Source: a virus (Duplodnaviria; Heunggongvirae; Uroviricota; Caudoviricetes). Taken from it: 17,791 bases of DNA. The position numbers and the translations under genes are program-made. The stretch lies in the IMG/VR virus record IMGVR_UViG_2698536647_000006, one strand, 5' to 3'. Under the pieces are notes generated by a model that was given only the letters and a program-made list of their open reading frames with translations, was not told the DNA's origin and ran no database searches. The number at the start of each line of letters is the position of its first letter. Positions within the stretch are counted from its first letter, which is position 1. Below are positions 1,308-16,423 of this stretch, in pieces.

Positions 1308-2330
1308 TCAATCGCTCCCTTTCCGCCCTTCAGCTACAGGGTCGTTGTCGGCGATAACAAAACCTAAGTCCTGAGAGAATCTCTCTCGTGGGAATCCTTT
1401 AGCAGGTAAACCCATTGAATCATATCCACATCCGGGAACATTTGGTTTAGAGTCAATAAGGTCTGCAATTTGCCGAAGCCATGTTGATCCCGGACCAAGT
1501 TGTTTAACTAAGTACCAGATAATACAGATCGCGCTAAAAATCCTCTCGCAACTCTCTGGATGGAGATTAAGTCCGTCAAAGTATTCATTATCCGGTACTG
1601 GAACTCGGGGATGCTTTCTATTCCATATTCTGGAATGGTGAGCGCAACGATTCCTTATGAGATTAAGGCACTTCAACCATTTTGCAAATGTCTGCTTATT
1701 ATCAATGCCAAAACGACGTATAATTTTCCCCTGCATATGACCATTAAGCATCGCATAATATTTAGACATCTGACCAAAATCCCAGGTCTCCACCGCCACC
1801 CAAAATGGAATCTCCTTGCCTTGGCTTCGATGCCATTCAATACAGTCATCTCTGCTTTCGTCTAATTTTACTTTTTGCTTATACACCCAATGCTCGAAGG
1901 CAGATGAGAATTTTGGATTAATGTATTTTGATGACATGTAGGCAAGTGGATCATTGCGACCAACCTCATGCGCGATGACTGAACGAACATGAATCTCTAT
2001 TCTTTCGATAGCATCAATCATCAAAAGACGCAGTTTTTTGTCAAAAAGATATAGATCGTACGTCTTCTCGAAACTGGTACCAGCAAGAAATCGGTCTGTT
2101 CTGTACGAAAGACCTTTATCTGTTGTCGCAATAATTCTTGATGGGTACCAAAAACCTGACAATCGATAATATCCAACCTGCGACAGCTTACGTATCGCAC
2201 GATTTCGATCATTGATAATCATGCCACGTTCAAGTAGCAATCCTAGCAATTCGTGATAGTCCTTATGAGGCTTTGCGGCAATCATAGTGGCGAAACAAAA
2301 GATAATAAAAGGCCCGACCGTGAAACTCAC
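1308..2330 (-). CDS. Abi_2 family abortive-infection protein (AbiD/AbiF-like)
   Basis: Length ~325-340 aa. N-terminal KPHKDYHELLGLLLERGMIINDRNRAIRKLSQVGYYRLSGFWYP and C-terminal LNLIRNRCAHHSRIWN match motifs I associate with lactococcal AbiD/AbiF-type proteins. The true start is probably the internal ATG at 2285 (MIAAKPHK...). Confidence 0.7.
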   Translation of the reverse strand: MSFTVGPFIIFCFATMIAAKPHKDYHELLGLLLERGMIINDRNRAIRKLSQVGYYRLSGFWYPSRIIATTDKGLSYRTDRFLAGTSFEKTYDLYLFDKKLRLLMIDAIERIEIHVRSVIAHEVGRNDPLAYMSSKYINPKFSSAFEHWVYKQKVKLDESRDDCIEWHRSQGKEIPFWVAVETWDFGQMSKYYAMLNGHMQGKIIRRFGIDNKQTFAKWLKCLNLIRNRCAHHSRIWNRKHPRVPVPDNEYFDGLNLHPESCERIFSAICIIWYLVKQLGPGSTWLRQIADLIDSKPNVPGCGYDSMGLPAKGFPRERFSQDLGFVIADNDPVAEGRKGSD

Positions 2331-3157: not shown

Positions 3158-3508
3158 GTGAATGCTCAGGCTGTCATCATGGTTTTACTTGGTCTGATTG
3201 TCGCAAAACTATATCCAGACTGGTGGAAAGGGGTATTAGCAACTGTCGCCATCTATTTGCTTTTATCCGTCGTTAAGCGATCGTTCGTTAAGACCGTAAA
3301 TCAAGCAAAACGTTTCTCATTTAAGAATTTAATAAACTATATTACTGGGCTTATTTTTTGCCTTTCAATTTTGATCGCTTCAGCTTTTTTGCCCGTATCA
3401 ATAGCTAATTTTTTTGGCGCACCATATGAGGTAGGTTATCTATTCTCTGTTTTTTGTCTTGTTCTTTCCCTTCTTTACCTATGGATGAGAGCAAAGAACA
3501 AAAATTAG
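3158..3508 (+). CDS. Small integral membrane protein (~116 aa, four predicted TM helices); candidate immunity/partner protein
   Basis: Four hydrophobic stretches of ~15-23 residues. Strong RBS AAGGGAGG (3144-3151) sits 6 nt before the GTG at 3158; the ORF-track start at 3089 has no RBS. Convergent with the 701-aa gene. Confidence 0.5.
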   Translation: MNAQAVIMVLLGLIVAKLYPDWWKGVLATVAIYLLLSVVKRSFVKTVNQAKRFSFKNLINYITGLIFCLSILIASAFLPVSIANFFGAPYEVGYLFSVFCLVLSLLYLWMRAKNKN

Positions 3509-3522
3509 CCATCCATGGCTAA
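3500..3522 (-). terminator. Hairpin TTAGCCAT-CC-ATGGCTAA in the 18-nt gap between convergent stop codons, followed by TTTTT on the minus strand
   Basis: Read directly between stop 3506-3508 (+) and stop 3527-3529 (-). On the minus strand the stem is followed immediately by a T5 run, fitting an intrinsic terminator for the cargo operon. Confidence 0.45.
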
Positions 3523-3526
3523 CCAG

Positions 3527-5632
3527 TTATTGAGATTCTTTTTGTGATGCCTGTGCGACTCTGGTGAGCGATTGTGTGACCGTACTGATCGCTCTGTCAT
3601 ATGCTGTGCTACCTTTTGGCGTATTTGCCAGACGTAACAAGGCATTTCGTATAACAGGGCTTTCGTATGCCTTCGCTGCTCCGCCTACGACACCAGCAGC
3701 AGGAACAACAAACGCAGCCGTTTTTAGCATCCCCGCTAATACTGCTGCGTTTATGATGCCACCACCAACTAACAATCCATAAAGCTGCTGACCATTTAAG
3801 TTTTGAACGTTCGCTTTTGCCGCGTGTCTTGTATCATTGAGGTATTTAATAACGCCGTCCAGTTCCTTTCCATATACGCCTTTAAAGAAAGTTGCTGATT
3901 GCTTCCTGTTCCGGTGTAACGCATTAATAAACTTCTCAACACTGATATTTCCAGACGGATCAGTCGCCTTATCTACAGCATTCTGAACTATGGCGGCTCG
4001 TGCGTTTTGCCTACCATTGTCATCCAGAAGCCTGTAAAGCTGAGAACGTTCTGATGGGTTTTGGCTAAAAACGAGTTTTGTTACATCCTCAGGCGTGGCC
4101 TTGCCGCTGGCTATTGCCTTTTGAACGCGCGTTCTTCCCATCATGTCATTGAATCTAGCCCATGAGCGATCAACCCTAGACATATTGGTAGCTTCTTCTG
4201 AGCCTAGTTTTTGGGATACTGCTTTTTTCATATCCGCTGTATATGCCTTGTAGACAATATCGCTGGCTTTCTGGAGCGTGTCTTTATCAACAGTCTCGTT
4301 TGAATTCATGAACCGCTTTCGAAGGTCAGTTCTGTTTTCTCTCGCCAGACGCAGGTCATTGGGTCCGCTGGTGATATCGTCTTTAAATTGCTGCAAGACT
4401 TTTACCGCGGCTCTATCCTGAGATTTGCCCGGTCGGCTTAACACGGCAATCTGATTGTCGATAGCTTTTACCGTGTTTGAGAGATCGACAGGGGTATCCC
4501 CCATAGCGTCAATTATGCGGTTATATCGCTTTCCTGCTGCCTCAATGAATTTTTGCTGCCCTTTAGTCGCAGACTCATAAAGCTGTTTATCTGAAATTCC
4601 CCCCAGACCATCGCTAAATGTTCTGACTAAATTTTCTCGTGCTTGTTGTTGATTCAGTCGGTTCTTACCGGTTCCAAAAAAAGGAAGTCTTTCGCCTAAT
4701 GTCTGAGCCTGACTCTGCATAAAGGTTTTATCTTTCAGCATGTCACTGGTCATTAACGGCAGATTTCTTTCCGATGCAAAGTCGACAGCAGCCTTTGCTT
4801 CAGGCGACATATCACCACGAACAGCCCTCGAAACCGCACTCGCTGTATTTTCCAGCCCCTTACCAATACCACCAATGCCAGCAGAAATTACCGTTTGTAA
4901 CGGATCAATATCTTCTCCACCAGCAAGGCTGGTGGCTCCCTGTAGTGCTAAATCTGTAGCTGCTGATTTTCCTATGGCACCAAGCACCGTTCCAGCCCTG
5001 CCCGCTGGTGTAAACGCCAACGCATTAGCAAGAAACGAAGTCAGGTCTTGCGGTGATAAACCCGGCTTGTTTAGGGCATAATCACCTGATGGCAGAGAAA
5101 CGATAGTATTCCCCTTCTCATCCTGCCTTAATGTCGCCCCCATTCCCTGAAGAATCTTTTCCTGAGACGCGTCAGAGCCGAAAAGTTGAGACCATCCAGC
5201 CTTTAAGGCATCCATGCTTAGTGAGTTCAATTCTGGGGCAGAGGCGACATTTTGCAGTCTCTCCATCTCTGGAGTCATTCGGCTTTCGCCTGTTATAGCA
5301 TCGCGCATCGCAGCCCCAAGACTGGCTCCCTGTTCTGCTGAACGCTCAAGCCCCTCTCTTTGCTGAGTAGCTAACTTTGCATACCCTGACGCAAGAGAAT
5401 TATCAGATGATGTATGTTGAATATTTTGAGTTGCTGATTGGGATCGGTCTATTTCATTCGTTGATGGCAGTGGATAGGCAGCATAAAAAGCCTGCTTAGC
5501 CTGCTCTACACTTTCTCCGGCTTGCGGGGCCACGACTTCATTGAAGTATTGCTCCTGAGCCTGCGCTTTTTGTTCTGGTGCTAACGCCTGATACTGTGGA
5601 GAAGCGATAACATCTTTCCATGCTTTAGCCAT
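3527..5632 (-). CDS. Hypothetical 701-aa low-complexity (A/G/Q/S-rich) protein with a C-terminal hydrophobic helical hairpin
   Basis: Long ORF whose ATG (5632-5630) overlaps the upstream stop as TAATG, with GGGG 6 nt upstream. No P-loop or other catalytic motif seen by eye. Hydrophobic segment LYGLLVGGGIINAAVLAGML-KT-AAFVVPAAGVVGGAA lies ~48 residues from the C-terminus. Confidence 0.8.
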   Translation of the reverse strand: MAKAWKDVIASPQYQALAPEQKAQAQEQYFNEVVAPQAGESVEQAKQAFYAAYPLPSTNEIDRSQSATQNIQHTSSDNSLASGYAKLATQQREGLERSAEQGASLGAAMRDAITGESRMTPEMERLQNVASAPELNSLSMDALKAGWSQLFGSDASQEKILQGMGATLRQDEKGNTIVSLPSGDYALNKPGLSPQDLTSFLANALAFTPAGRAGTVLGAIGKSAATDLALQGATSLAGGEDIDPLQTVISAGIGGIGKGLENTASAVSRAVRGDMSPEAKAAVDFASERNLPLMTSDMLKDKTFMQSQAQTLGERLPFFGTGKNRLNQQQARENLVRTFSDGLGGISDKQLYESATKGQQKFIEAAGKRYNRIIDAMGDTPVDLSNTVKAIDNQIAVLSRPGKSQDRAAVKVLQQFKDDITSGPNDLRLARENRTDLRKRFMNSNETVDKDTLQKASDIVYKAYTADMKKAVSQKLGSEEATNMSRVDRSWARFNDMMGRTRVQKAIASGKATPEDVTKLVFSQNPSERSQLYRLLDDNGRQNARAAIVQNAVDKATDPSGNISVEKFINALHRNRKQSATFFKGVYGKELDGVIKYLNDTRHAAKANVQNLNGQQLYGLLVGGGIINAAVLAGMLKTAAFVVPAAGVVGGAAKAYESPVIRNALLRLANTPKGSTAYDRAISTVTQSLTRVAQASQKESQ

Positions 5633-7080
5633 TAATCACCCCATAGTGAAGAAAAGTTACTGCTGGCTGCTGGCTGTGATACCTGTGCAGGTTGAGATTG
5701 CTGCCGCTGAGATTTACCAACATTAACGTTATATTGCTGGTTGTAATTGTCGGTATATTGCTGAATGTCGCGCATTGATTGTTGTAGTGCTTCAGGGCTT
5801 GAGAAATCAGGCTTTGGCATACCCTGAAAATACCTATTGGCCTCTGCTTCGGTGTTGATGCCAGATGCCCCCATATCTCGGGCTGCCGCAATCCCCTGAT
5901 TTTGCATTTTGCCCATGATTCGCTGTGCAGCGTTGTATAGTTTCCTCTCCTCAACACCAGATGCCCGGCTACGAATATCTGCACCAAGAGCAAAAGAACC
6001 TGAAGAACCTGTAATACCTGTCATGAAGCCAAGATCGTCAATTGATGCGCCAGAAATTGCATCAAGATCTTTCTTCATTTCGTAATTCTGCGCATTAGCT
6101 GCCGATGTAGCCGGAGCAGCAATAGAACTTGCGGGGACGCGAATCATATTGCCCTCGTTGTCTATTCCTTCGTAGAACGCATTAGCACCAGCGCCGTGAA
6201 GCTTCCTACCAACCGTTACCGTTCTACCATCTGCCAGTTGCACAACATTCTCCCCGCCAGCAGCAGGACGGCCTCGAACACGAAGATATGTCTTTTGTTG
6301 CTCTGGAGACAGGCTGTTGAAATATTGATATTCTTTAACAGATGCAGGAACAGCACCTCCAGCAGTGCGCAGAGAGTTTTCACGGCTAACAGCAATGCTT
6401 TGCGCCTGTAAACCTTCCCCAGCTTTATTGCTGCGAATCGTCTCTGCCAACTCGCCACGCTCAATATCCCGACCCTCCATTCGATCTTTGATATCGAAGT
6501 ACTTCTCATGACCGAGAGAAAACAGCGCCAGATTACCTGCGAAATGCTGGAAGCCCTGCGGGTCATTAACCTGCATTTCAGCAATAGTTTCTGGAGGGAT
6601 ACCTAAACGACGCATCTCCTGCTCATTATCCATCATGAACCTGCCAAATGCGCCCGGACCAAGCGATGAGGCTACCTGTGCTTTGAGCGCCAGATTGCCA
6701 TAATCATCCCTTTGAGCATCATCGACATAACTCATCCCTTTACGGACTTCCTCAAACTCTTCTGGGAATGCTGTAATAAGATTACGCATCTGCTCCCTGT
6801 CGCCGGACGCATAAGCATCTGCATAACCTTTCTGGAATGCCGCTTTACGCTCCTGCTGTTGCTGCTGCTTATAAATATCAGCAACTCCAGCCAGACCACG
6901 TAACGCGGTCAGACCAACGTTATTTGCACCTGAGCGAGCCAGTTCATTGTTTTCGCGGATCAGACCAAGCGTTGCGTTAATGTCGCTTGCCTTTGGCGCA
7001 TTCTCATTTTGCGTACCGATGCCAGCCAGAAAACCACCAGAATTAATACCCTGTTGCCACGTAGCCATTGATTTACCCAC
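5632..7080 (-). CDS. Hypothetical 482-aa low-complexity (Q/G/A/N-rich) protein, translationally coupled to the 701-aa gene
   Basis: Long ORF with no recognisable enzymatic motif. The track start is GTG at 7080; an alternative ATG at 7068 lies 4 nt after the stop of the 57-codon ORF. Confidence 0.8.
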
Positions 7081-7246
7081 GTCCAGTTAAAGTGTAAGCC
7101 AGCGCCTTATCCATTAATCCCCGAGCAATTTCGTGGATCGTTGGCGCAACTCCTACCTCTGATTTTTTACGCTGCTCCTCCTGAATTTTCTTTATCGCTT
7201 CCATTTGCTTCTCACTTATCAATACTGGCTTTACTGAAATAGCCAT
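7073..7246 (-). CDS. Unannotated 57-aa ORF, RHH-like; first gene of the cargo operon
   Basis: Manual translation: ATG 7246-7244, TAA 7075-7073, giving [66 protein letters not shown] lies 4-5 nt upstream. Below the ORF-track cutoff. Confidence 0.45.
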
Positions 7247-7261
7247 AACGCCCCCTTAGAA

Positions 7262-7277
7262 CTGTATAAAACAACAG
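7262..7277. promoter_or_regulatory. LexA (SOS) box CTGT-N8-ACAG
   Basis: CTGTATAAAACAACAG read directly, with an AT-rich spacer. About 14/20 positions match the E. coli consensus TACTGTATATATATACAGTA, including both half-sites. A perfect TATAAT on the minus strand (7285-7280) lies just upstream, though no good -35 was found. Confidence 0.55.
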
Positions 7278-7341
7278 TTATTATAGTTTCACAAATCGCA
7301 ATATTCATCATCGTAATTGCAAAATATGAAACAAATAGCAC

Positions 7342-7374
7342 AAAAAAATGCCACCGCTCAGTAGCTGGTGGCAT
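7342..7374 (-). terminator. Rho-independent terminator (minus strand) separating the primase/iteron region from the cargo operon
   Basis: Minus strand reads ATGCCACC-AGCTACTGAGC-GGTGGCAT followed by TTTTTT: an 8-bp GC-rich stem plus T6. Confidence 0.6.
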
Positions 7375-7568
7375 CGTTCTGTATGTCAGGTTTTGACAGG
7401 TTTTTTATGGACTCTAAAAACTATATTTATGGTGTCGCATTACTCTTCACGGCAGGCGCTTTCCAGTTCTGCCCTTGCTTCTGGCTCCATTGGTAATTTG
7501 ATTCGCGATCAGCTATGCGGATGGTTTGCTGAACAGGCATAACAACTTCTCAAAGGCTGTTTTTTGAA

Positions 7569-7644
7569 CTACGAAAATTTCGTAGTGCTCACTTTCAAAA
7601 ACGTCACGCCCTTGTACACAGGATTTTACGAAAGTCTCGTAAAA
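7569..7644. promoter_or_regulatory. Two related palindromes: CTACGAAA-A-TTTCGTAG (7569-7585) and TTTTACGA-AAGTC-TCGTAAAA (7624-7644)
   Basis: Both read directly and share inverted TACGA/TCGTA half-sites, centre-to-centre ~57 bp apart. They lie between iteron cluster B and the cargo-operon promoter; candidate operator sites. Confidence 0.35.
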
Positions 7645-7694
7645 CACTCTCTGATGCCAGCCAGGTGTTGTGCGCATCAATTCAGTCACATTGT

Positions 7695-7810
7695 GTTGGT
7701 TCAAAATACCGTGTTGTTGGTTCAGTGTTGGTTCAATAAAAAGAATAAAATCCTTATAAAACAATACTCTTTACAAATTGAACCAACTGAACCAACTGAA
7801 CCAACACCTT
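7695..7810. repeat. Iteron cluster B: three spaced GTTGGTTCA (7695-7703, 7716-7724, 7727-7735) plus three tandem TGAACCAAC (7779-7805)
   Basis: Direct reading; mirror image of cluster A. Lies immediately 3' of the primase-helicase gene, so it is a candidate ori. Confidence 0.7.
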
Positions 7811-7830
7811 TTCTACGCACATGAAGAAGC

Positions 7831-10587
7831 TCATTCTTCAGATGAGTTATAATCTCCAGGCTGGTAATTGAGTACATAAACGTTTATTTGTCGTCCCTGA
7901 ATACGTGGTGATTTTCTTTGGTATCCACGACCGCTGTTTGGTGGGGTTAGCATCCCGGCTTTTTTCAACACTTCAGCAAACTGTTTTGCGTTGAAACCAC
8001 ATGCGATCTCCTTTTCAAATGTGGCCGGGAATGTGTAGAAAATCATTGGGCTTTCGTCATGTTCTCCACGCTGACGGTATCCGGCCAAATCTTTGATGGG
8101 CAAATCTGCCGGGCTGTATGGAAATGGTGCAAAACGGCTAAGCCCATAGGCATTAAGAAATGCCTCCGTTTGTTCAATAATCTGCTGATGTTCTTTGTTA
8201 CCTGTGCCGAACTCGCGCAACCATGCGTTATAGCTGTGCTGTATCGCATCACGGCATGTCTGAGCATCCCAGCCTGTTACAACCTCGCCTAACAGCAATG
8301 CGGCCTCCAGAATGGCAAATCGCGCGGCTACACGGTGAACCTGCTCACCATAATCGGATGGGATCAGACTTCTCCATCTGCTTTCGCAGTCACGAACAGT
8401 TTTAATTGCCTGTTGCTGGTGGTCTGCCAGCCATTTAATCCACTCACGCCCGGCTGCGCCGTGGTGATGCTGGTAAGCGTCTTTCAGTGCGTCTGCGTGC
8501 TGTTTTCCGTTCTGGTAATCGTGAAAGCGTACTGCTTTACTCAACGGAATATTCAGCAGTCGCACCAGTTGCCCGGCTTTGGTTTTTCGCCCGGAAGTAG
8601 CGATAAATGTTTCTAAATCCATTTCTCCAGTGCTGATTGCCACTGTACGCCAGCGTTTTAGATCCCGGTTTCCACCATCTTTAGCGCCTTGCAGTTTCCC
8701 TACACCGTTAAATAACGCATAGGCAGACTGTGAAACACTGACAGGATCAGCGCCCTGACCAACTTCATCAAGCGGTATTAGTCCGTCATTGTGGGCGGCG
8801 GCTTCATTTGCCAGCCCCAGCGCGGTTCCGTACCACGTCAGCCGCAATAAATCAGGGTTGCCGTATAAGCTGCTCGCCACGTTTGCCGTGGTGGTCTTAC
8901 CTGCGCTCGACTGCTCATAGAAATGAATGCCGAACCCGTCAGCGCCCACCAGCCCAATCAATGGCGCTGCCAGTGCTGCGCCGATCCCGGTCATCATTGA
9001 ATAGTTACCAAAGGCCAGACGCGCCACGTTATCACGCCAGCTTTTCGCGCTCCCTGAGACGGTATATCCGGCTGCGGCTGAGCTTCTCCCGCTGAACAGC
9101 ACAGGATTTTCAGGTGTTCCGATGATTTCCCCATCAGGCATGATGTACGCTCCGCATTGCCAGCCAGTGGCATGAGCAACACGCCACAATTCACGAGAGC
9201 CACTGCGTTGTAGCCAGTCTGCCAGTATTGCTCTGAGGCTGCTTTTGGTCGTGACATTTACCCCACCAGCTTTAAGTGTGCGCCATCCTTCACGTTCACC
9301 AATATCAGCCAGTGGAATAGCAGCGGTTGTCGGCGTTTCAGAACCAAACGACAGCCAGCGAAGAATGAGATACTGGTCTTTATCGTCTCTGCCAGTACCG
9401 ATAACGCTTAACGGAGAACATAACCAGCTTTCGTTATTGATGATTTCTCCACTCTGGCTGTCAGCTCTCGGAGATACCCAATAAATACCATCCTCGCGGC
9501 TTTCTATTCTTGGTTTCAGTGGGTCGGTATCCATAACCTTAAAATCGCTTCCCTCAATGGTCTGTGGCTGCTGTTTCACGCCATTACCCTGTGGTTGGTA
9601 CATTGACTTATTGAACGCTTCTGTGGCGCATTTAATGCCGTGTTTTTGGTGGTAATCATTCCAGTCTGCTTTGTGATCTGTCGGGGGTAATGCCACCCAT
9701 CCAGAAACAGATAAAGCTGCTTTTTCTGCTGCTATTCTCCCCGTGTTTTGTCTTCCTTCGCTGTGGTCGTTATCCGCAGCAATGATGATTTGTGCTGAAG
9801 GAAATTTATCCCGCAGTACCTGGGCGACATATAACAGGTTCCCGGCATCAATCGCCGCCACTGTCAGCGATTCTGGACGAATTAAATGGGCAGATAATGC
9901 CGTTGCCAGCCCTTCTGCGATTAAGATGCTCTGTGTTGTTTCTGGTGCGTTTATGGCGTGATATGCCCCTCGCTTTGCTGAACCTGTCAGGAGTCTTTTT
10001 TCACCATGTGAGGTAATAGTCTGTGCTGCTGTGACTGCGCCGGATTTATCCACCAGCGCCAGCAACAGAGATCCATCGGGCAACACTGGGAATGTAAAAT
10101 CACCTACCCCTTTCGCAACCAGATAATCAGATTTGCCGTTTACAGCCTTTCTGCGCATGTCATCAAACTGACGGGAAAACGTATCCCGTCTTTGTTGTTC
10201 GTCCTTCTCTGCCCTTTTCAGGCGCTCCTGTTCGCGTCGCTGGCGCTCGGTTTCCAGTTGTTCCCGTTTCTGGCTGGTGGCTTCTGGTGTTTCCGTTGTC
10301 CGGTAATCAATACCCAGAACATCAGCGGCAAGCAGCGCCGCCTCTGTTGTGTCGCAGTTATTTACGCGTTTAATTAAATCCAGCCCATCACCAGCGCCGC
10401 ACTGATTACAGATGAAGCTACCGCGCCCGTTGTCATCGAACCGGAATCGATCTTTGCCCCCACATGCAGGGCAGGGAGCATGACGGCGCGGAGAGTCAGG
10501 GACATTTATGTTCAGGCAGCCCAGCACATGAGGCCAGTTGTTTTCAGACGCACTGATAACCTGACGGATAAGATCAATGTTTCGCAT
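7831..10587 (-). CDS. Primase-helicase (zinc-ribbon primase, TOPRIM, P-loop NTPase), 918 aa
   Basis: Cys-rich N-terminus CPACGG...CNQCG; TOPRIM-like IAEGLATA...AADNDH; Walker A SSAGKTT and Walker B-like IPLDEVGQ. GGGGG RBS 5 nt upstream of the ATG at 10587. Architecture resembles satellite-phage replicases such as P4 alpha. Confidence 0.85.
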   Translation of the reverse strand: MRNIDLIRQVISASENNWPHVLGCLNINVPDSPRRHAPCPACGGKDRFRFDDNGRGSFICNQCGAGDGLDLIKRVNNCDTTEAALLAADVLGIDYRTTETPEATSQKREQLETERQRREQERLKRAEKDEQQRRDTFSRQFDDMRRKAVNGKSDYLVAKGVGDFTFPVLPDGSLLLALVDKSGAVTAAQTITSHGEKRLLTGSAKRGAYHAINAPETTQSILIAEGLATALSAHLIRPESLTVAAIDAGNLLYVAQVLRDKFPSAQIIIAADNDHSEGRQNTGRIAAEKAALSVSGWVALPPTDHKADWNDYHQKHGIKCATEAFNKSMYQPQGNGVKQQPQTIEGSDFKVMDTDPLKPRIESREDGIYWVSPRADSQSGEIINNESWLCSPLSVIGTGRDDKDQYLILRWLSFGSETPTTAAIPLADIGEREGWRTLKAGGVNVTTKSSLRAILADWLQRSGSRELWRVAHATGWQCGAYIMPDGEIIGTPENPVLFSGRSSAAAGYTVSGSAKSWRDNVARLAFGNYSMMTGIGAALAAPLIGLVGADGFGIHFYEQSSAGKTTTANVASSLYGNPDLLRLTWYGTALGLANEAAAHNDGLIPLDEVGQGADPVSVSQSAYALFNGVGKLQGAKDGGNRDLKRWRTVAISTGEMDLETFIATSGRKTKAGQLVRLLNIPLSKAVRFHDYQNGKQHADALKDAYQHHHGAAGREWIKWLADHQQQAIKTVRDCESRWRSLIPSDYGEQVHRVAARFAILEAALLLGEVVTGWDAQTCRDAIQHSYNAWLREFGTGNKEHQQIIEQTEAFLNAYGLSRFAPFPYSPADLPIKDLAGYRQRGEHDESPMIFYTFPATFEKEIACGFNAKQFAEVLKKAGMLTPPNSGRGYQRKSPRIQGRQINVYVLNYQPGDYNSSEE

Positions 10588-13941: not shown

Positions 13942-14373
13942 TTAGGCGGCGTTAAACGCGTCCGGGTAGAGTTTCAGAATGTCGGCAATTTCCTGCTGAG
14001 AAAGTCCGTTGTGATCATTTATGTTCGCAAGATGGTTAATATGAGTGATCACTTTCAGAACATCACCACGGCAGGAGAAACGGTAGCGAAGGTGTGTTCC
14101 GATACCATCAGGATTCTTTTCGTCGATACGCTCCAGAGTGATTCCAAGCTGGCGTTCTAACTCTGTTGCATAGTTACGACCAGAAGACAGACGGCAGTAG
14201 CGAAGAATGTCATTTTCTGTCCATCCCTCTATACCAGTACGCAGCATATAGACTCTGGCACGATGCTTTTTCGGTGTGCGCTTTGGTGCTTGAAGGGATT
14301 TTGTAAGGGGCGTAACATCAGATACACGAATATCTGAATTAGCCGCCTGTAATGGGCGGTTTTTCTTTTCCAT
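13942..14373 (-). CDS. Hypothetical protein (143 aa)
   Basis: ORF immediately downstream of alpA with a 1-nt TGATG stop/start overlap; no family recognised. Confidence 0.55.
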   Translation of the reverse strand: MEKKNRPLQAANSDIRVSDVTPLTKSLQAPKRTPKKHRARVYMLRTGIEGWTENDILRYCRLSSGRNYATELERQLGITLERIDEKNPDGIGTHLRYRFSCRGDVLKVITHINHLANINDHNGLSQQEIADILKLYPDAFNAA

Positions 14374-14576
14374 CAGGCCATCTCGTCTCTAGATTCTAAT
14401 ATACACTTCTCAATCCATTCATCTATTTCAGACTCAACAAAAGCAATTGCCCGACTTCCAATTTTTACCTGTTTAGGGAACCTCCCCTGACTAATAAGAC
14501 GATAAATCCATGCTTTGCTATAACCAGTTCGCCTTTGAACTTCAGAGAGACGAATTAATGAATTGTAATTAGCCAT
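14373..14576 (-). CDS. alpA: AlpA-family phage regulatory protein (small HTH activator/excisionase-like)
   Basis: 67 aa; LIRLSEVQRRTGYSKAWIYRLISQGRFPKQVKIGSRAIAFVESEIDEWI matches the AlpA/Vis-type HTH pattern. Sits next to the integrase, as usual in tRNA islands. Confidence 0.85.
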   Translation of the reverse strand: MANYNSLIRLSEVQRRTGYSKAWIYRLISQGRFPKQVKIGSRAIAFVESEIDEWIEKCILESRDEMA

Positions 14577-14967
14577 TTATTAATATCCTGTACTAATGAC
14601 GCAATAACCCCCTCCTGCAACGAATGGCGAGAGTTTTATTTGCGTCAAATGCCGAATACGCCAAAGACCACAATATGAAAAACATATTGCGGTCTTTTAT
14701 AAAAGATAGTCAGATTGTTTTGGTTTGTTTGCTCCACAAGGGTAGAGCTACCCTGCATTTCGGCAGGATCACGCTATTAGGCGTGACATCCAGTAGTTTT
14801 AAAGAACATTCCGCTTTGTCAGCGACGTAGAAGGCTCAATACACCTTCGTTTATAAAAGAGCGATTGCCCTTCTCCAGGGCTAACTGTTAAATAGCAATC
14901 CTCTGTGAGTTTTTATCAATCTACTCCCCTATACTTTAGTAAACCTCTGTATACTTGTCCAGTTGTT

Positions 14968-16182
14968 TCATGCGTGTTTTTCAAACACCATATGCACCAC
15001 ATTTCCGCCATGCTCGAGAGAATCCATATAGTCGGCATACCATTGAAGCATCTCCCGCCTTCCATCCAGATATTGCGCATGGTTGTATGTGCCACGAATT
15101 GAGTTCTTATCAACGTGAGCGAGCTGCGTTTCTATCCACGCGGTGTTATAGCCCTGCTCATGCAAAATCGTACTCATAGTGTGCCGGAACCCATGACCAG
15201 TTACACGTCCAGCGTAGCCAATGCGCTTAAACACTTGGTTTATGCTGGCCTCGCTCATTGTTTTCCTTGGATCATTGCGCCCGGGAAACATAAGAGGGTA
15301 ATTGCCTGTTATTTCTCTAATCTTCCCAATAAGCGAAAGAGCCTGCTCAGACAATGGCACAATATGAGGCCGCCGCATTTTCATACGTGAAGCGGGTATC
15401 TCCCAGATAGCCTTGTTGAAATCAATTTCATCCCATAATGCGCCACGTAGTTCGCCAGTCCGCAAGCCGGTGATAATCAGTAGACGAGCCGCCATAACAA
15501 CCAATGCGCTTCCTGAGTAACTGGACAATGCCTTGAAAAAATCAGGTAATTCTTTGGCTGTAAGGAAAGGGTAATGATTAGATTCATGGCCTTGCATCGC
15601 GCTAGTAAGGTCTGGTGCAGGGTTATACTCTGCGCGACCAGTGACTATTGCATAGCGGAAAACTTCCCCGCACCGCTGCCTCACTTTTTTGGCTTTTTCT
15701 GTAGCACCGCGCCCCTCGATGCGCCGCAGCACATTCAGAAGTTCAAGTGGTTTGATTTCGGCGATTGGTTTTTTGCCAATGTAAGGGAACACATCTTTGT
15801 TGAAGGCTTCGAGGATGTCTGAAGCATAACCAGCAGACCATTTTTTTAATTTGCTGCTGTGCCACTCAAGGGCAATATCTTTGAAGGTGTTGTTTAACTG
15901 CGTTTCCCGGGCAATCTTTTCCTCTCGTTTCGCTTCCATCGGATCGATACCACCAGCGATACCTCTTTTCGCATCTTCACGTTTTGCCCGAGCATCGGCT
16001 AGAGTAACCTCAGGATACACACCTAGTGCCAATAGCTTCTCTTTACCAGCTACACGATATTTAAGTCGCCAGTATTTACCTCCATTAGGTTTTACCAAGA
16101 GATACAAACCGCCACCATCGGCCAGCTTGTAAGCCTTCTCTTTTGGCTTGGCTGTGTCTATTTGACGGGCATTGAGTTTCAC
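14968..16182 (-). CDS. int: P4-type tyrosine integrase
   Basis: 404 aa; N-terminal arm-binding pattern LADGGGLYLLVKPNGGKYWRLKYR and C-terminal catalytic region HGFRHT...LAH...Y. Starts at GTG 16182 with GGAGG upstream. Adjacent to the tRNA 3' end. Confidence 0.9.
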   Translation of the reverse strand: MKLNARQIDTAKPKEKAYKLADGGGLYLLVKPNGGKYWRLKYRVAGKEKLLALGVYPEVTLADARAKREDAKRGIAGGIDPMEAKREEKIARETQLNNTFKDIALEWHSSKLKKWSAGYASDILEAFNKDVFPYIGKKPIAEIKPLELLNVLRRIEGRGATEKAKKVRQRCGEVFRYAIVTGRAEYNPAPDLTSAMQGHESNHYPFLTAKELPDFFKALSSYSGSALVVMAARLLIITGLRTGELRGALWDEIDFNKAIWEIPASRMKMRRPHIVPLSEQALSLIGKIREITGNYPLMFPGRNDPRKTMSEASINQVFKRIGYAGRVTGHGFRHTMSTILHEQGYNTAWIETQLAHVDKNSIRGTYNHAQYLDGRREMLQWYADYMDSLEHGGNVVHMVFEKHA

Positions 16183-16347: not shown

Positions 16348-16423
16348 TGGTGCCGATAATAGGAGTCGAACCTACGACCTTCGCATTACGAATGCGCTGC
16401 TCTACCAACTGAGCTATATCGGC
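16348..16423 (-). tRNA. thrW: tRNA-Thr (anticodon CGU), intact with 3' CCA; island attachment site
   Basis: Minus strand reads GCCGATATAGCTCAGTTGGTAGAGCAGCGCATTCGTAATGCGAAGGTCGTAGGTTCGACTCCTATTATCGGCACCA, 76 nt with anticodon-loop TTCGTAA. Matches E. coli thrW as I recall it, and lies next to proA as in E. coli. Confidence 0.9.

What the first reader, a model, noticed from the sequence alone, without database searches (positions are those of the whole stretch)
7262..7285. Consensus-like LexA operator next to a perfect -10 hexamer at the cargo operon
CTGTATAAAACAACAG (7262-7277) has both LexA half-sites with an AT-rich 8-bp spacer. A perfect TATAAT on the coding strand sits just upstream (7285-7280), so LexA would occlude the transcription start. 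The cargo would then be switched on by DNA damage, the signal that also induces helper prophages and bacteriocins. I found no convincing -35.
Basis: partly seen in the sequence, partly recalled or inferred. Interest (0 to 1): 0.6.

Follow-up and report, generated by a model that had tools for sequence, protein, structure and literature searches.

The report
LexA switch on satellite ejection-protein operon
A textbook-quality binding site for the DNA-damage repressor LexA sits on the transcription start of a three-gene operon that encodes phage DNA-ejection proteins inside an E. coli phage-satellite-like island, so the island probably makes these proteins when DNA damage wakes its helper phage.

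Summary
CTGTATAAAACAACAG lies at 7262-7277 and a perfect TATAAT lies two bases upstream on the minus strand (7285-7280).

The 20-mer AACTGTATAAAACAACAGTT has a LexA heterology index of 8.2. That is inside the range of proven E. coli SOS boxes. About 0.004 such sites are expected by chance in the window.

The site heads an insulated minus-strand operon with terminators on both sides. The operon encodes a 57-aa leader protein and homologues of phage P22 ejection proteins gp20 and gp16. It lies in an int-alpA-primase-ori island at tRNA-Thr.

The 40-nt promoter/operator stretch occurs in 498 of 5426 complete E. coli genomes. The 16-bp core was intact in every copy I inspected.

Related islands in Serratia, Erwinia, Pantoea and Lonsdalea carry canonical boxes at the same position with different spacers. 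Many Klebsiella and Raoultella relatives have a version one base too short, so LexA control is lineage-specific.

LexA repression lifted by SOS is the best reading. It is predicted here, not measured. The closest precedent is the LexA-controlled operon I of staphylococcal SaPIs. I rate it a new member of a known kind, of moderate interest.

The parts
7260..7279 (.). LexA (SOS) box, 20-mer AACTGTATAAAACAACAGTT; the 16-bp core CTGT-N8-ACAG is at 7262-7277
   Evidence: Sequence. HI 8.19 with the recovered Lewis matrix. Chance expectation 0.0037 per window and 0.00024 per intergenic region. The core is intact in all E. coli-type copies inspected.
7280..7285 (-). -10 hexamer TATAAT; predicted transcription start about 7273, inside the LexA box
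   Evidence: Sequence. The hexamer is conserved in 23 of the 27 aligned promoters from about 10 genera (variants AATAAC/AATAAT in L073/L074/L081, ATAAAG in Pectobacterium L025), and the TATAAT-NN-CTGT spacing is fixed. The start site is inferred from the usual 7-nt distance and was not mapped.
7303..7308 (-). Weak -35 candidate ATGAAT at 17-bp spacing (3 of 6 matches)
   Evidence: Read. The consensus promoter scan found nothing at 9 of 12 matches or better.
7287..7302 (.). Proximal pseudo-palindrome ATTGCGATTTGTGAAA (family motif ATTKCA-N5-TGMAAT); it abuts the -10 and occupies the spacer and -35 zone
   Evidence: Pattern match. Conserved columns in the 27-sequence alignment A2. Its function is inferred: an operator for an unknown regulator.
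7316..7331 (.). Distal copy of the same motif, TTTCATATTTTGCAAT on the - strand
   Evidence: Exact match. Conserved in A2.
7251..7257 (-). Shine-Dalgarno AAGGGGG, 4 nt before the ATG at 7246-7244
   Evidence: Sequence.
7073..7246 (-). 57-aa leader protein, a conserved family with a predicted extended N-terminus followed by two helices
   Evidence: ORF. 45 homologues. Alignment A1 has 20 invariant columns. AlphaFold pLDDT 75. No Pfam, PHROG, NCBIfam or PADLOC hit. No significant fold or ribbon-helix-helix (RHH) match.
5632..7068 (-). P22 gp20-like ejection protein; its start overlaps the leader stop
   Evidence: Pfam Inj_translocase 3e-82. phrog_917 6e-199. At most 67% identical to any phage in INPHARED. 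RefSeq calls it 'phage DNA ejection protein'.
3527..5632 (-). P22 gp16-like ejection (DNA transfer) protein; its start overlaps the gp20 stop
   Evidence: phrog_770 'DNA transfer protein' 2e-163. tblastn matches to gene 16 of ST64T, ST104, Sf6 and L at 32-66% identity.
7341..7383 (-). Intrinsic terminator that insulates the operon from the primase/ori unit upstream
   Evidence: Terminator scan. RNA fold -24.1 kcal/mol, z = -6, followed by a run of seven U.
3495..3524 (-). Intrinsic terminator directly after the gp16-like stop codon
   Evidence: Terminator scan: 9-bp stem plus a T-run.

Best explanation
The site is a working LexA operator on the only evident promoter of a 3.8-kb operon (leader, gp20-like, gp16-like) in a PICI-like (phage-inducible chromosomal island) phage-satellite island at tRNA-Thr.

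In undamaged cells a LexA dimer sits on 7260-7279. That position is immediately downstream of the -10 hexamer and over the predicted start site, so RNA polymerase cannot form or clear an open complex. DNA damage activates RecA, LexA cleaves itself and the operon is transcribed.

The same signal induces SOS-inducible P22-like prophages. The island's own matched pair of ejection proteins would therefore be present while helper procapsids assemble.

What is shown: the sequence, its score, its geometry, the insulation of the operon, the identity of the genes, and the conservation pattern.

What is inferred: LexA binding, the start site, SOS induction, the use of the proteins in helper-built particles, and a second layer of control at the conserved ATTKCA-N5-TGMAAT palindromes that replace a -35.
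For: - HI 8.19 lies within the range of proven SOS boxes. The low-HI, LexA-binding class in the PSOSP table runs up to about 13.6.
- Chance expectation is 0.0037 per window and 0.00024 in the intergenic region.
- K-12 has 14 sites at or below this HI against about 1 expected.
- The box starts 2 bp after a perfect TATAAT and ends 13 nt before the ATG, with a Shine-Dalgarno sequence between them.
- Strong terminators flank the unit, and the three genes overlap at their junctions.
- The 40-nt stretch is present in 498 of 5426 E. coli genomes: 288 records identical, 212 with 1-2 mismatches.
- In 17 E. coli-type copies inspected, all changes fall on flank positions. The adjacent upstream stretch (about 30 nt) carries 6-7 substitutions.
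- Five sequence-distinct lineages keep CTGT and ACAG at the same distance from TATAAT while all eight spacer positions vary. They are E. coli, Serratia HI 6.3, L037-39 HI 10-11, Erwinia/Pantoea/Lonsdalea HI 7.4-8.9 and Pantoea coffeiphila HI 8.2.
- In 720 kb of fetched related DNA, every box with HI <= 10 lies at this promoter except three. Two of those three head a candidate defence operon.
- Precedent: SaPI operon I is controlled by LexA (Ubeda 2007, cited in PMC6092414).
Against: - No binding, start-site or expression data exist. A full-text search for the site sequence found no paper.
- The promoter lacks a -35 and carries conserved operator-like palindromes. LexA removal may therefore not be enough for expression.
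- In 39 of 87 related loci the element is one base short (CTG-N9-CAG), yet CTGTAT is still conserved. Part of the conservation is therefore not due to LexA.
- The neighbour-joining (NJ) tree places canonical boxes in at least two clades nested among the short form.
- E. coli PICIs studied so far are reported to be induced by the helper, not by SOS (PMC6092414).
Confidence: 0.75

Rival explanations
1. The conserved CTGTAT...CAG element is primarily an operator or 5'-leader element for another factor. Candidates are the 57-aa leader protein or a helper-phage regulator. On this view the match to LexA in E. coli is secondary, and LexA contributes little to control.
For: Of 87 related loci, 39 keep TATAAT-NN-CTGTATAAATATCAGG with N9 spacing. 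Another group keeps CTGTATAAATATCATG, which has no right half-site. The short form is nearly invariant across genera. The NJ tree suggests the short form may be ancestral.
Against: An HI of 8.2 is by itself predictive of LexA binding in E. coli, whatever else binds there. Within the canonical lineages the eight core bases never vary while all spacer bases do, which is the LexA signature. In the short-form clade CTG is mutated in several loci (L047, L051, L057, L086), as expected for relaxed constraint.
Confidence: 0.12
2. LexA binds, but the operon is a decaying remnant of a P22-like late region with no present role for the island. SOS control would then have no biological consequence.
For: In this window gp14 and gp7 are missing compared with sister islands. 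In strain EC6868 RefSeq annotates the gp16-like gene as incomplete.
Against: All three ORFs are intact and translationally coupled in the window. The arrangement is found in hundreds of genomes. The same leader and promoter head intact virion DNA-delivery genes in about 10 genera. P22 work shows that gp16 and gp20 are the pair that must match, while gp7 is interchangeable (PMC10461980).
Confidence: 0.08
3. A chance AT-rich palindrome with no regulatory role.
For: The loose pattern CTGT-N8-ACAG occurs in 15% of shuffled windows.
Against: The full 20-mer score is expected 0.0037 times per window. Its position relative to the -10 is fixed across genera. The core is invariant in E. coli copies.
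Confidence: 0.03
4. The box controls a divergent plus-strand transcript running towards the ori/primase side, not the ejection operon.
For: LexA boxes are symmetric and can serve divergent promoters, as at uvrA/ssb (established knowledge).
Against: No plus-strand promoter-like site was found in 6900-7900. The plus-strand ORFs at 7348-7542 and 7564-7824 have no family hits. That region holds a minus-strand terminator and ori-like iterons.
Confidence: 0.02

Closest known systems
LexA-repressed operon I (packaging/morphogenesis operon) of Staphylococcus aureus pathogenicity islands (SaPIs; Ubeda et al. 2007, title cited in PMC6092414)
   Same: In both cases a phage satellite wires an operon of virion-related functions directly to the host SOS repressor. 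The operon is therefore on when SOS-inducible helper prophages are induced.
   Different: The host is Gram-negative and the box type is CTGT-N8-ACAG. The products are DNA-ejection proteins, not small terminase or capsid-remodelling proteins. No experimental data exist here.
Classical E. coli SOS promoters with the box at or just after the -10 (sulA, umuDC, colicin operons; from established knowledge)
   Same: The operator consensus is the same, the HI is in the functional range, and the operator overlaps the start site.
   Different: There is a single box, whereas colicin promoters have two. There is no recognisable -35, and there are extra conserved palindromes upstream.
Gram-negative PICIs such as EcCICFT073 (PMC6092414)
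   Same: The island layout matches: integrase at a tRNA, then alpA, then primase/replicase followed by an iteron ori, then an accessory or virion-related module, with no capsid genes.
   Different: EcCICFT073 alpA expression was reported to depend on the helper, not on SOS. That island redirects packaging, whereas this one carries ejection proteins behind a LexA box. Helper dependence of this island is untested.
Genes 14-7-20-16 of phage P22 and other P22-like phages (PMC10461980)
   Same: gp20 and gp16 (and gp14 and gp7 in sister islands) are homologous, in the same order, with overlapping junctions.
   Different: In the phages these are late genes inside the virion operon. Here they are a stand-alone, terminator-flanked unit with its own LexA-controlled promoter and a leader gene. 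Identity to any sequenced phage is at most 67%.
LexA-controlled antirepressors of coliphage 186 (Tum) and Gifsy prophages (from established knowledge)
   Same: A mobile element uses host LexA directly, rather than a cleavable repressor of its own, to sense DNA damage.
   Different: Those products trigger induction. This operon encodes structural and delivery proteins.

Membership tests
Gammaproteobacterial LexA (SOS) box | 16-bp palindromic core CTGT-N8-ACAG with an AT-rich spacer | tested here: met
   CTGTATAAAACAACAG at 7262-7277; 7 of the 8 spacer bases are A or T.
Gammaproteobacterial LexA (SOS) box | Heterology index within the range of sites that bind LexA (proven sites up to about 12.6; low-HI class up to about 13.6 in PSOSP Table S1) | tested here: met
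   HI 8.19 with the matrix recovered from PMC12527982 Table S1.
Gammaproteobacterial LexA (SOS) box | Lies within or next to a promoter, so that bound LexA hinders RNA polymerase | tested here: met
   The 20-mer box directly abuts a perfect TATAAT (its CTGT core lies 2 bp downstream) and covers the predicted +1. The start site is predicted, not mapped.
Gammaproteobacterial LexA (SOS) box | Conserved in orthologous promoters, with half-sites more conserved than the spacer | tested here: met
   Met in E. coli and in four further lineages with different spacers. Not met in 60 of 87 family members, which have N9 spacing or no box. Control is therefore lineage-specific.
Gammaproteobacterial LexA (SOS) box | Binds LexA in vitro or in vivo, and the downstream genes are induced by DNA damage in a lexA- and recA-dependent way | not testable with these tools
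No paper in the library contains the site sequence.
Phage-inducible chromosomal island (Gram-negative PICI-like satellite) | Integrase at one end, next to a specific attachment site | tested here: met
   Tyrosine integrase at 14968-16182, next to tRNA-Thr at 16348-16423 and proA.
Phage-inducible chromosomal island (Gram-negative PICI-like satellite) | alpA regulator, followed by a primase/replicase gene with an adjacent iteron origin | tested here: met
   AlpA at 14373-14576. Toprim/DUF927 primase at 7831-10587. Iterons GTTGGTTCA x3 direct plus x3 inverted at 7693-7807.
Phage-inducible chromosomal island (Gram-negative PICI-like satellite) | No capsid, portal, large terminase or lysis genes | tested here: met
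   None was found among the ORFs scanned with Pfam and PHROGs. Only part of the left end of the island lies in the window.
Phage-inducible chromosomal island (Gram-negative PICI-like satellite) | Excision, replication and packaging depend on a helper phage | not testable with these tools
   This needs induction and transduction experiments.
P22-type ejection proteins | Homology to gp20 and gp16 over most of their length, with the genes adjacent and in that order | tested here: met
   Pfam Inj_translocase. phrog_917 and phrog_770. tblastn matches to genes 20 and 16 of P22-like phages with 90-100% coverage.
Ribbon-helix-helix regulators (considered for the 57-aa leader) | Significant sequence or fold similarity to RHH proteins | tested here: not met

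The most novel reading that the evidence does not exclude
A widespread family of Enterobacterales satellite islands carries a conserved promoter-plus-leader cassette. The cassette drives whichever genome-delivery proteins match the local helper type: P22-type ejection proteins, tape-measure proteins, transglycosylase-bearing internal virion proteins or baseplate hubs. In the E. coli, Serratia and Erwinia/Pantoea lineages the cassette has been wired, possibly more than once, directly to host LexA. The satellites would then re-equip helper-built particles with their own DNA-entry machinery at SOS induction. The purpose could be to pass entry blocks such as SieA in recipient cells or to spoil helper virions.
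Probability: 0.3. Interest if true: 0.75.

Novelty: new member of a known kind. Interest (0 to 1): 0.5.

Why it matters
If confirmed, this would be the first LexA-controlled virion-protein operon in a Gram-negative phage satellite. The PICIs studied so far in Gram-negative bacteria are described as sensing the helper rather than SOS.

It also points to a satellite strategy I did not find described in the open literature searched: satellites that bring their own DNA-delivery proteins.

P22 work shows that gp16 and gp20 must be a matched pair and that they decide sensitivity to SieA exclusion (PMC10461980). SOS-timed supply of an alternative pair could therefore change which cells a transducing particle can enter.

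In practical terms, about 9% of complete E. coli genomes carry this SOS-linked unit. It should therefore appear in mitomycin or quinolone transcriptomes of clinical strains.

Tried and rejected
- **Literature for a ready LexA site table.** A search for known box sequences returned only nucleosome papers. I used the PSOSP supplement instead.
- **Literature on satellites with ejection or tape-measure proteins, and on the site itself.** Nothing relevant turned up.
- **DNA match of the promoter region to sequenced phages.** None was found.
- **Rfam on 7150-7900.** It gave only sub-threshold miRNA-hairpin hits, which reflect the iteron inverted repeats.
- **Second LexA-like box at 14945-14964 (HI 12.9).** It overlaps a promoter-like -35 but is absent from the sister island, so I did not build on it.
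- **Defence-system reading of the operon.** There is no PADLOC hit. A LexA-repressed unit would also be off in uninfected cells.
- **Divergent-promoter reading.** Rejected because no plus-strand promoter or credible gene is present.

Full report
**1. Observation**

The plus strand reads ...TTAGAACTGTATAAAACAACAGTTATTATAGTTTCAC.... CTGTATAAAACAACAG occupies 7262-7277. ATTATA at 7280-7285 reads TATAAT on the minus strand. It is the only CTGT-N8-ACAG in the window. That loose pattern alone is weak evidence, because 30 of 200 shuffles contain one.

**2. Score**

Table S1 of the PSOSP paper (PMC12527982) lists potential SOS boxes of E. coli K-12 with their Lewis/Berg-von Hippel heterology index. 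A non-negative regression on 140 of these pairs recovered a palindromic position matrix that reproduces the published values with rmse 1e-5.

The 20-mer AACTGTATAAAACAACAGTT (7260-7279) scores 8.19. For comparison, in the same table recA scores 4.31, lexA box 1 scores 6.40, yebG 7.04, lexA box 2 8.32, uvrD 8.80, ruvAB 9.19 and polB 12.09. The gene assignments are from my memory of Fernandez de Henestrosa et al. 2000.

A site this good is expected 0.0037 times in the window, 0.00024 times in the 584-nt intergenic region at its own composition, and about once in 4.64 Mb. K-12 has 14 distinct sites at or below this value. The only other box in the window below HI 20 is at 14945-14964, with HI 12.9.

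**3. Local anatomy**

The minus strand reads as follows. First comes a strong terminator hairpin with a run of seven U (7383-7341; -24.1 kcal/mol, z = -6). Next is TTTCATATTTTGCAAT (7331-7316), a 13-nt gap, and ATTGCGATTTGTGAAA (7302-7287). Then follow C, TATAAT (7285-7280), the LexA 20-mer (7279-7260), CT, AAGGGGG (7257-7251), CGTT and ATG (7246).

The -10 hexamer puts +1 near 7273, inside the box. This start site is an inference. There is no -35: the hexamer at 17-bp spacing is ATGAAT, and the consensus scan reports no promoter.

The ATG opens a 57-aa ORF (7073-7246). Its stop overlaps the start of a 478-482-aa protein, which matches Pfam Inj_translocase at 3e-82 and phrog_917. The stop of that protein overlaps the start of a 701-aa protein matching phrog_770, 'DNA transfer protein'. 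tblastn identifies these two as homologues of genes 20 and 16 of P22-like phages, at most 67% and 66% identical to any sequenced phage. A second terminator follows the last stop codon (3524-3503 plus a T-run).

The LexA box therefore sits on the only evident promoter of an insulated 3.8-kb unit.

**4. The island**

The window is an E. coli chromosomal island at tRNA-Thr next to proA. In order on the minus strand it contains:

- integrase (14968-16182)
- AlpA (14373-14576)
- an AntA/AntB-type protein, DUF4222 and Ash
- small ORFs
- Toprim/DUF927 primase (7831-10587)
- GTTGGTTCA iterons in two inverted triplets (7693-7807), consistent with a replication origin
- the LexA-controlled operon
- AbiD/Abi_2 and PerC

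This rests. It is the layout of Gram-negative PICI-type satellites (PMC6092414). Helper dependence is untested.

**5. Conservation in E. coli**

A 348-nt stretch around the site is found in 504 of 5426 complete genomes. The 40-nt stretch from Shine-Dalgarno sequence to -10 is found in 498 genomes. Of 500 records, 288 are identical and 212 carry 1-2 mismatches.

In the E. coli-type copies I read (L001-3, L012, L027-36, L087-89), the only changes in or next to the box are at outer position 1 or 20 of the 20-mer (HI 9.5) and in the Shine-Dalgarno spacer. The adjacent upstream stretch of about 30 nt carries 6-7 substitutions.

Sister islands with a different primase (DUF5906) have the same promoter and leader. 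These are followed by gp14-like, gp7-like, gp20-like and gp16-like genes. In the window, gp14 and gp7 are missing and the leader's C-terminus differs.

**6. Beyond E. coli**

The leader protein has homologues in Serratia, Klebsiella, Raoultella, Erwinia, Pantoea, Lonsdalea, Rahnella, Leclercia, Pectobacterium and Chimaeribacter. I classified 87 loci. In most of them the architecture is the same: two ATTKCA-N5-TGMAAT motifs, then TATAAT, then NN, then CTGTAT (alignment A2).

- A canonical CTG-N10-CAG box at the same position occurs in 27 loci from five sequence-distinct lineages:
  - E. coli, CTGTTGTTTTATACAG
  - Serratia, CTGTGTCTATATACAG, HI 6.3
  - L037-39, CTGTATCGTTATACAG, HI 10-11
  - Erwinia/Pantoea/Lonsdalea, CTGTATAAAATAACAG, HI 7.4-8.9
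  - Pantoea coffeiphila, CTGTATAAATAAACAG, HI 8.2

  All eight core bases are invariant and all eight spacer positions vary.
- In 39 loci the element is CTGTATAAATATCAGG or similar, with CTG-N9-CAG spacing. As far as I know from the LexA-DNA structure, LexA should not bind this well.
- 21 loci have no box. Several of them are point mutants of the short form, and Leclercia is a point mutant of the L037 type.

A neighbour-joining tree of the (very short) leader proteins puts the canonical boxes in at least two clades nested among short-form lineages. LexA control was therefore either gained more than once or lost many times. In either case it is lineage-specific, and part of the CTGTAT conservation must have another cause.

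As an empirical background I scanned 720 kb of fetched related DNA. Every box with HI <= 10 lies at this promoter except three.

**7. What the promoter drives elsewhere**

After the leader gene, other lineages carry one of the following:

- tape-measure proteins of 850-1190 aa
- 600-900-aa virion proteins with a lytic transglycosylase domain
- baseplate-hub homologues
- distal-tail-like proteins

All of these are virion proteins that breach the envelope or conduct DNA into the cell.

**8. Mechanism and comparison**

The best-supported reading is plain SOS control. LexA sits on the start site, RecA-stimulated self-cleavage removes it, and the leader, gp20 and gp16 are made.

The closest precedent is the LexA-controlled operon I of SaPIs (Ubeda 2007, cited in PMC6092414). 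The box position, at or just after the -10, is as in sulA, umuDC and colicin promoters (established knowledge).

The case differs from studied E. coli PICIs, whose alpA was reported to respond to the helper and not to SOS.

Why a satellite would carry ejection proteins is open. P22 work shows that gp16 and gp20 must be a matched pair, that mismatched pairs give non-infectious particles, and that these two proteins determine sensitivity to SieA exclusion (PMC10461980). That makes both 'pass the recipient's entry block' and 'spoil helper virions' plausible. Neither is tested.

The missing -35 and the conserved palindromes suggest a second regulator. The always-linked leader protein is a candidate, but I found no support for a ribbon-helix-helix fold beyond a predicted extended segment followed by two helices.

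**9. Verdict**

The operator itself is a new member of a well-known kind. The cassette it controls is the more interesting lead. My confidence that LexA binds and represses this promoter is about 0.75. Interest is 0.5.

Noticed in passing
window 7693-7807: Three direct copies of GTTGGTTCA(A/G) face three inverted copies across an AT-rich core, directly after the Toprim/DUF927 primase gene. This looks like the island's replication origin. Rfam gave only weak miRNA-hairpin hits here.
   Followed up: partly
window 14945-14964: A second, borderline LexA-like box (CTCTGTATACTTGTCCAGTT, HI 12.9) overlaps the -35 of a promoter-like site (TGGACA-17-TAAAGT). The site lies just after the integrase stop codon, upstream of the alpA/antA/primase genes. 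It is present in L001 and absent from the sister island L090.
   Followed up: partly
window 7287-7302 and 7316-7331; alignment A2: Two 16-17-bp pseudo-palindromes (ATTKCA-N5-TGMAAT) are conserved across about 10 genera. The proximal one abuts the -10 where a -35 should be. They probably form an operator for an unknown regulator, possibly the leader protein.
   Followed up: partly
L047 and L086, about 2025-2075: In Klebsiella-type relatives whose leader promoter has lost its CTG, a TTGCAT promoter-like site is followed by two adjacent LexA boxes (HI 6.2 and about 10.7). These precede a two-gene PADLOC candidate defence system (PDC-M18A/B), in a colicin-like double-box arrangement.
   Followed up: partly
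L006-L011, L013-L026, L040-L086 (downstream of the leader gene): The same promoter and leader head very different virion genes in other genera: tape-measure proteins, transglycosylase-bearing internal or tail proteins, baseplate hubs and Dit-like proteins. This suggests a swappable genome-delivery module in this satellite family.
   Followed up: partly
39 related loci, e.g. L006:4960-4995, L014, L016: The sequence TATAAT-NN-CTGTATAAATATCAGG is nearly invariant across Klebsiella, Raoultella, Rahnella and Serratia silvae. It has a perfect left LexA half-site but is one base too short for a LexA box. This is unexplained.
   Followed up: partly
window 1308-2330 and 297-578: An AbiD/Abi_2 abortive-infection protein and a PerC-family regulator lie in the island's accessory end, downstream of the ejection operon.
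   Followed up: no
window 7073-7246 versus L002 6988-7149: The leader protein is 57 aa in the window, where it is fused directly to gp20, and 53 aa with a different C-terminus in islands that keep gp14 and gp7. This is consistent with a deletion that removed genes 14 and 7.
   Followed up: partly
L001 8818-10633: In strain EC6868 RefSeq annotates the gp16-like gene as incomplete, although that region gives the same 701-aa ORF by my own ORF scan. The gene is also a full 701-aa ORF in the window. I did not resolve the discrepancy.
   Followed up: no
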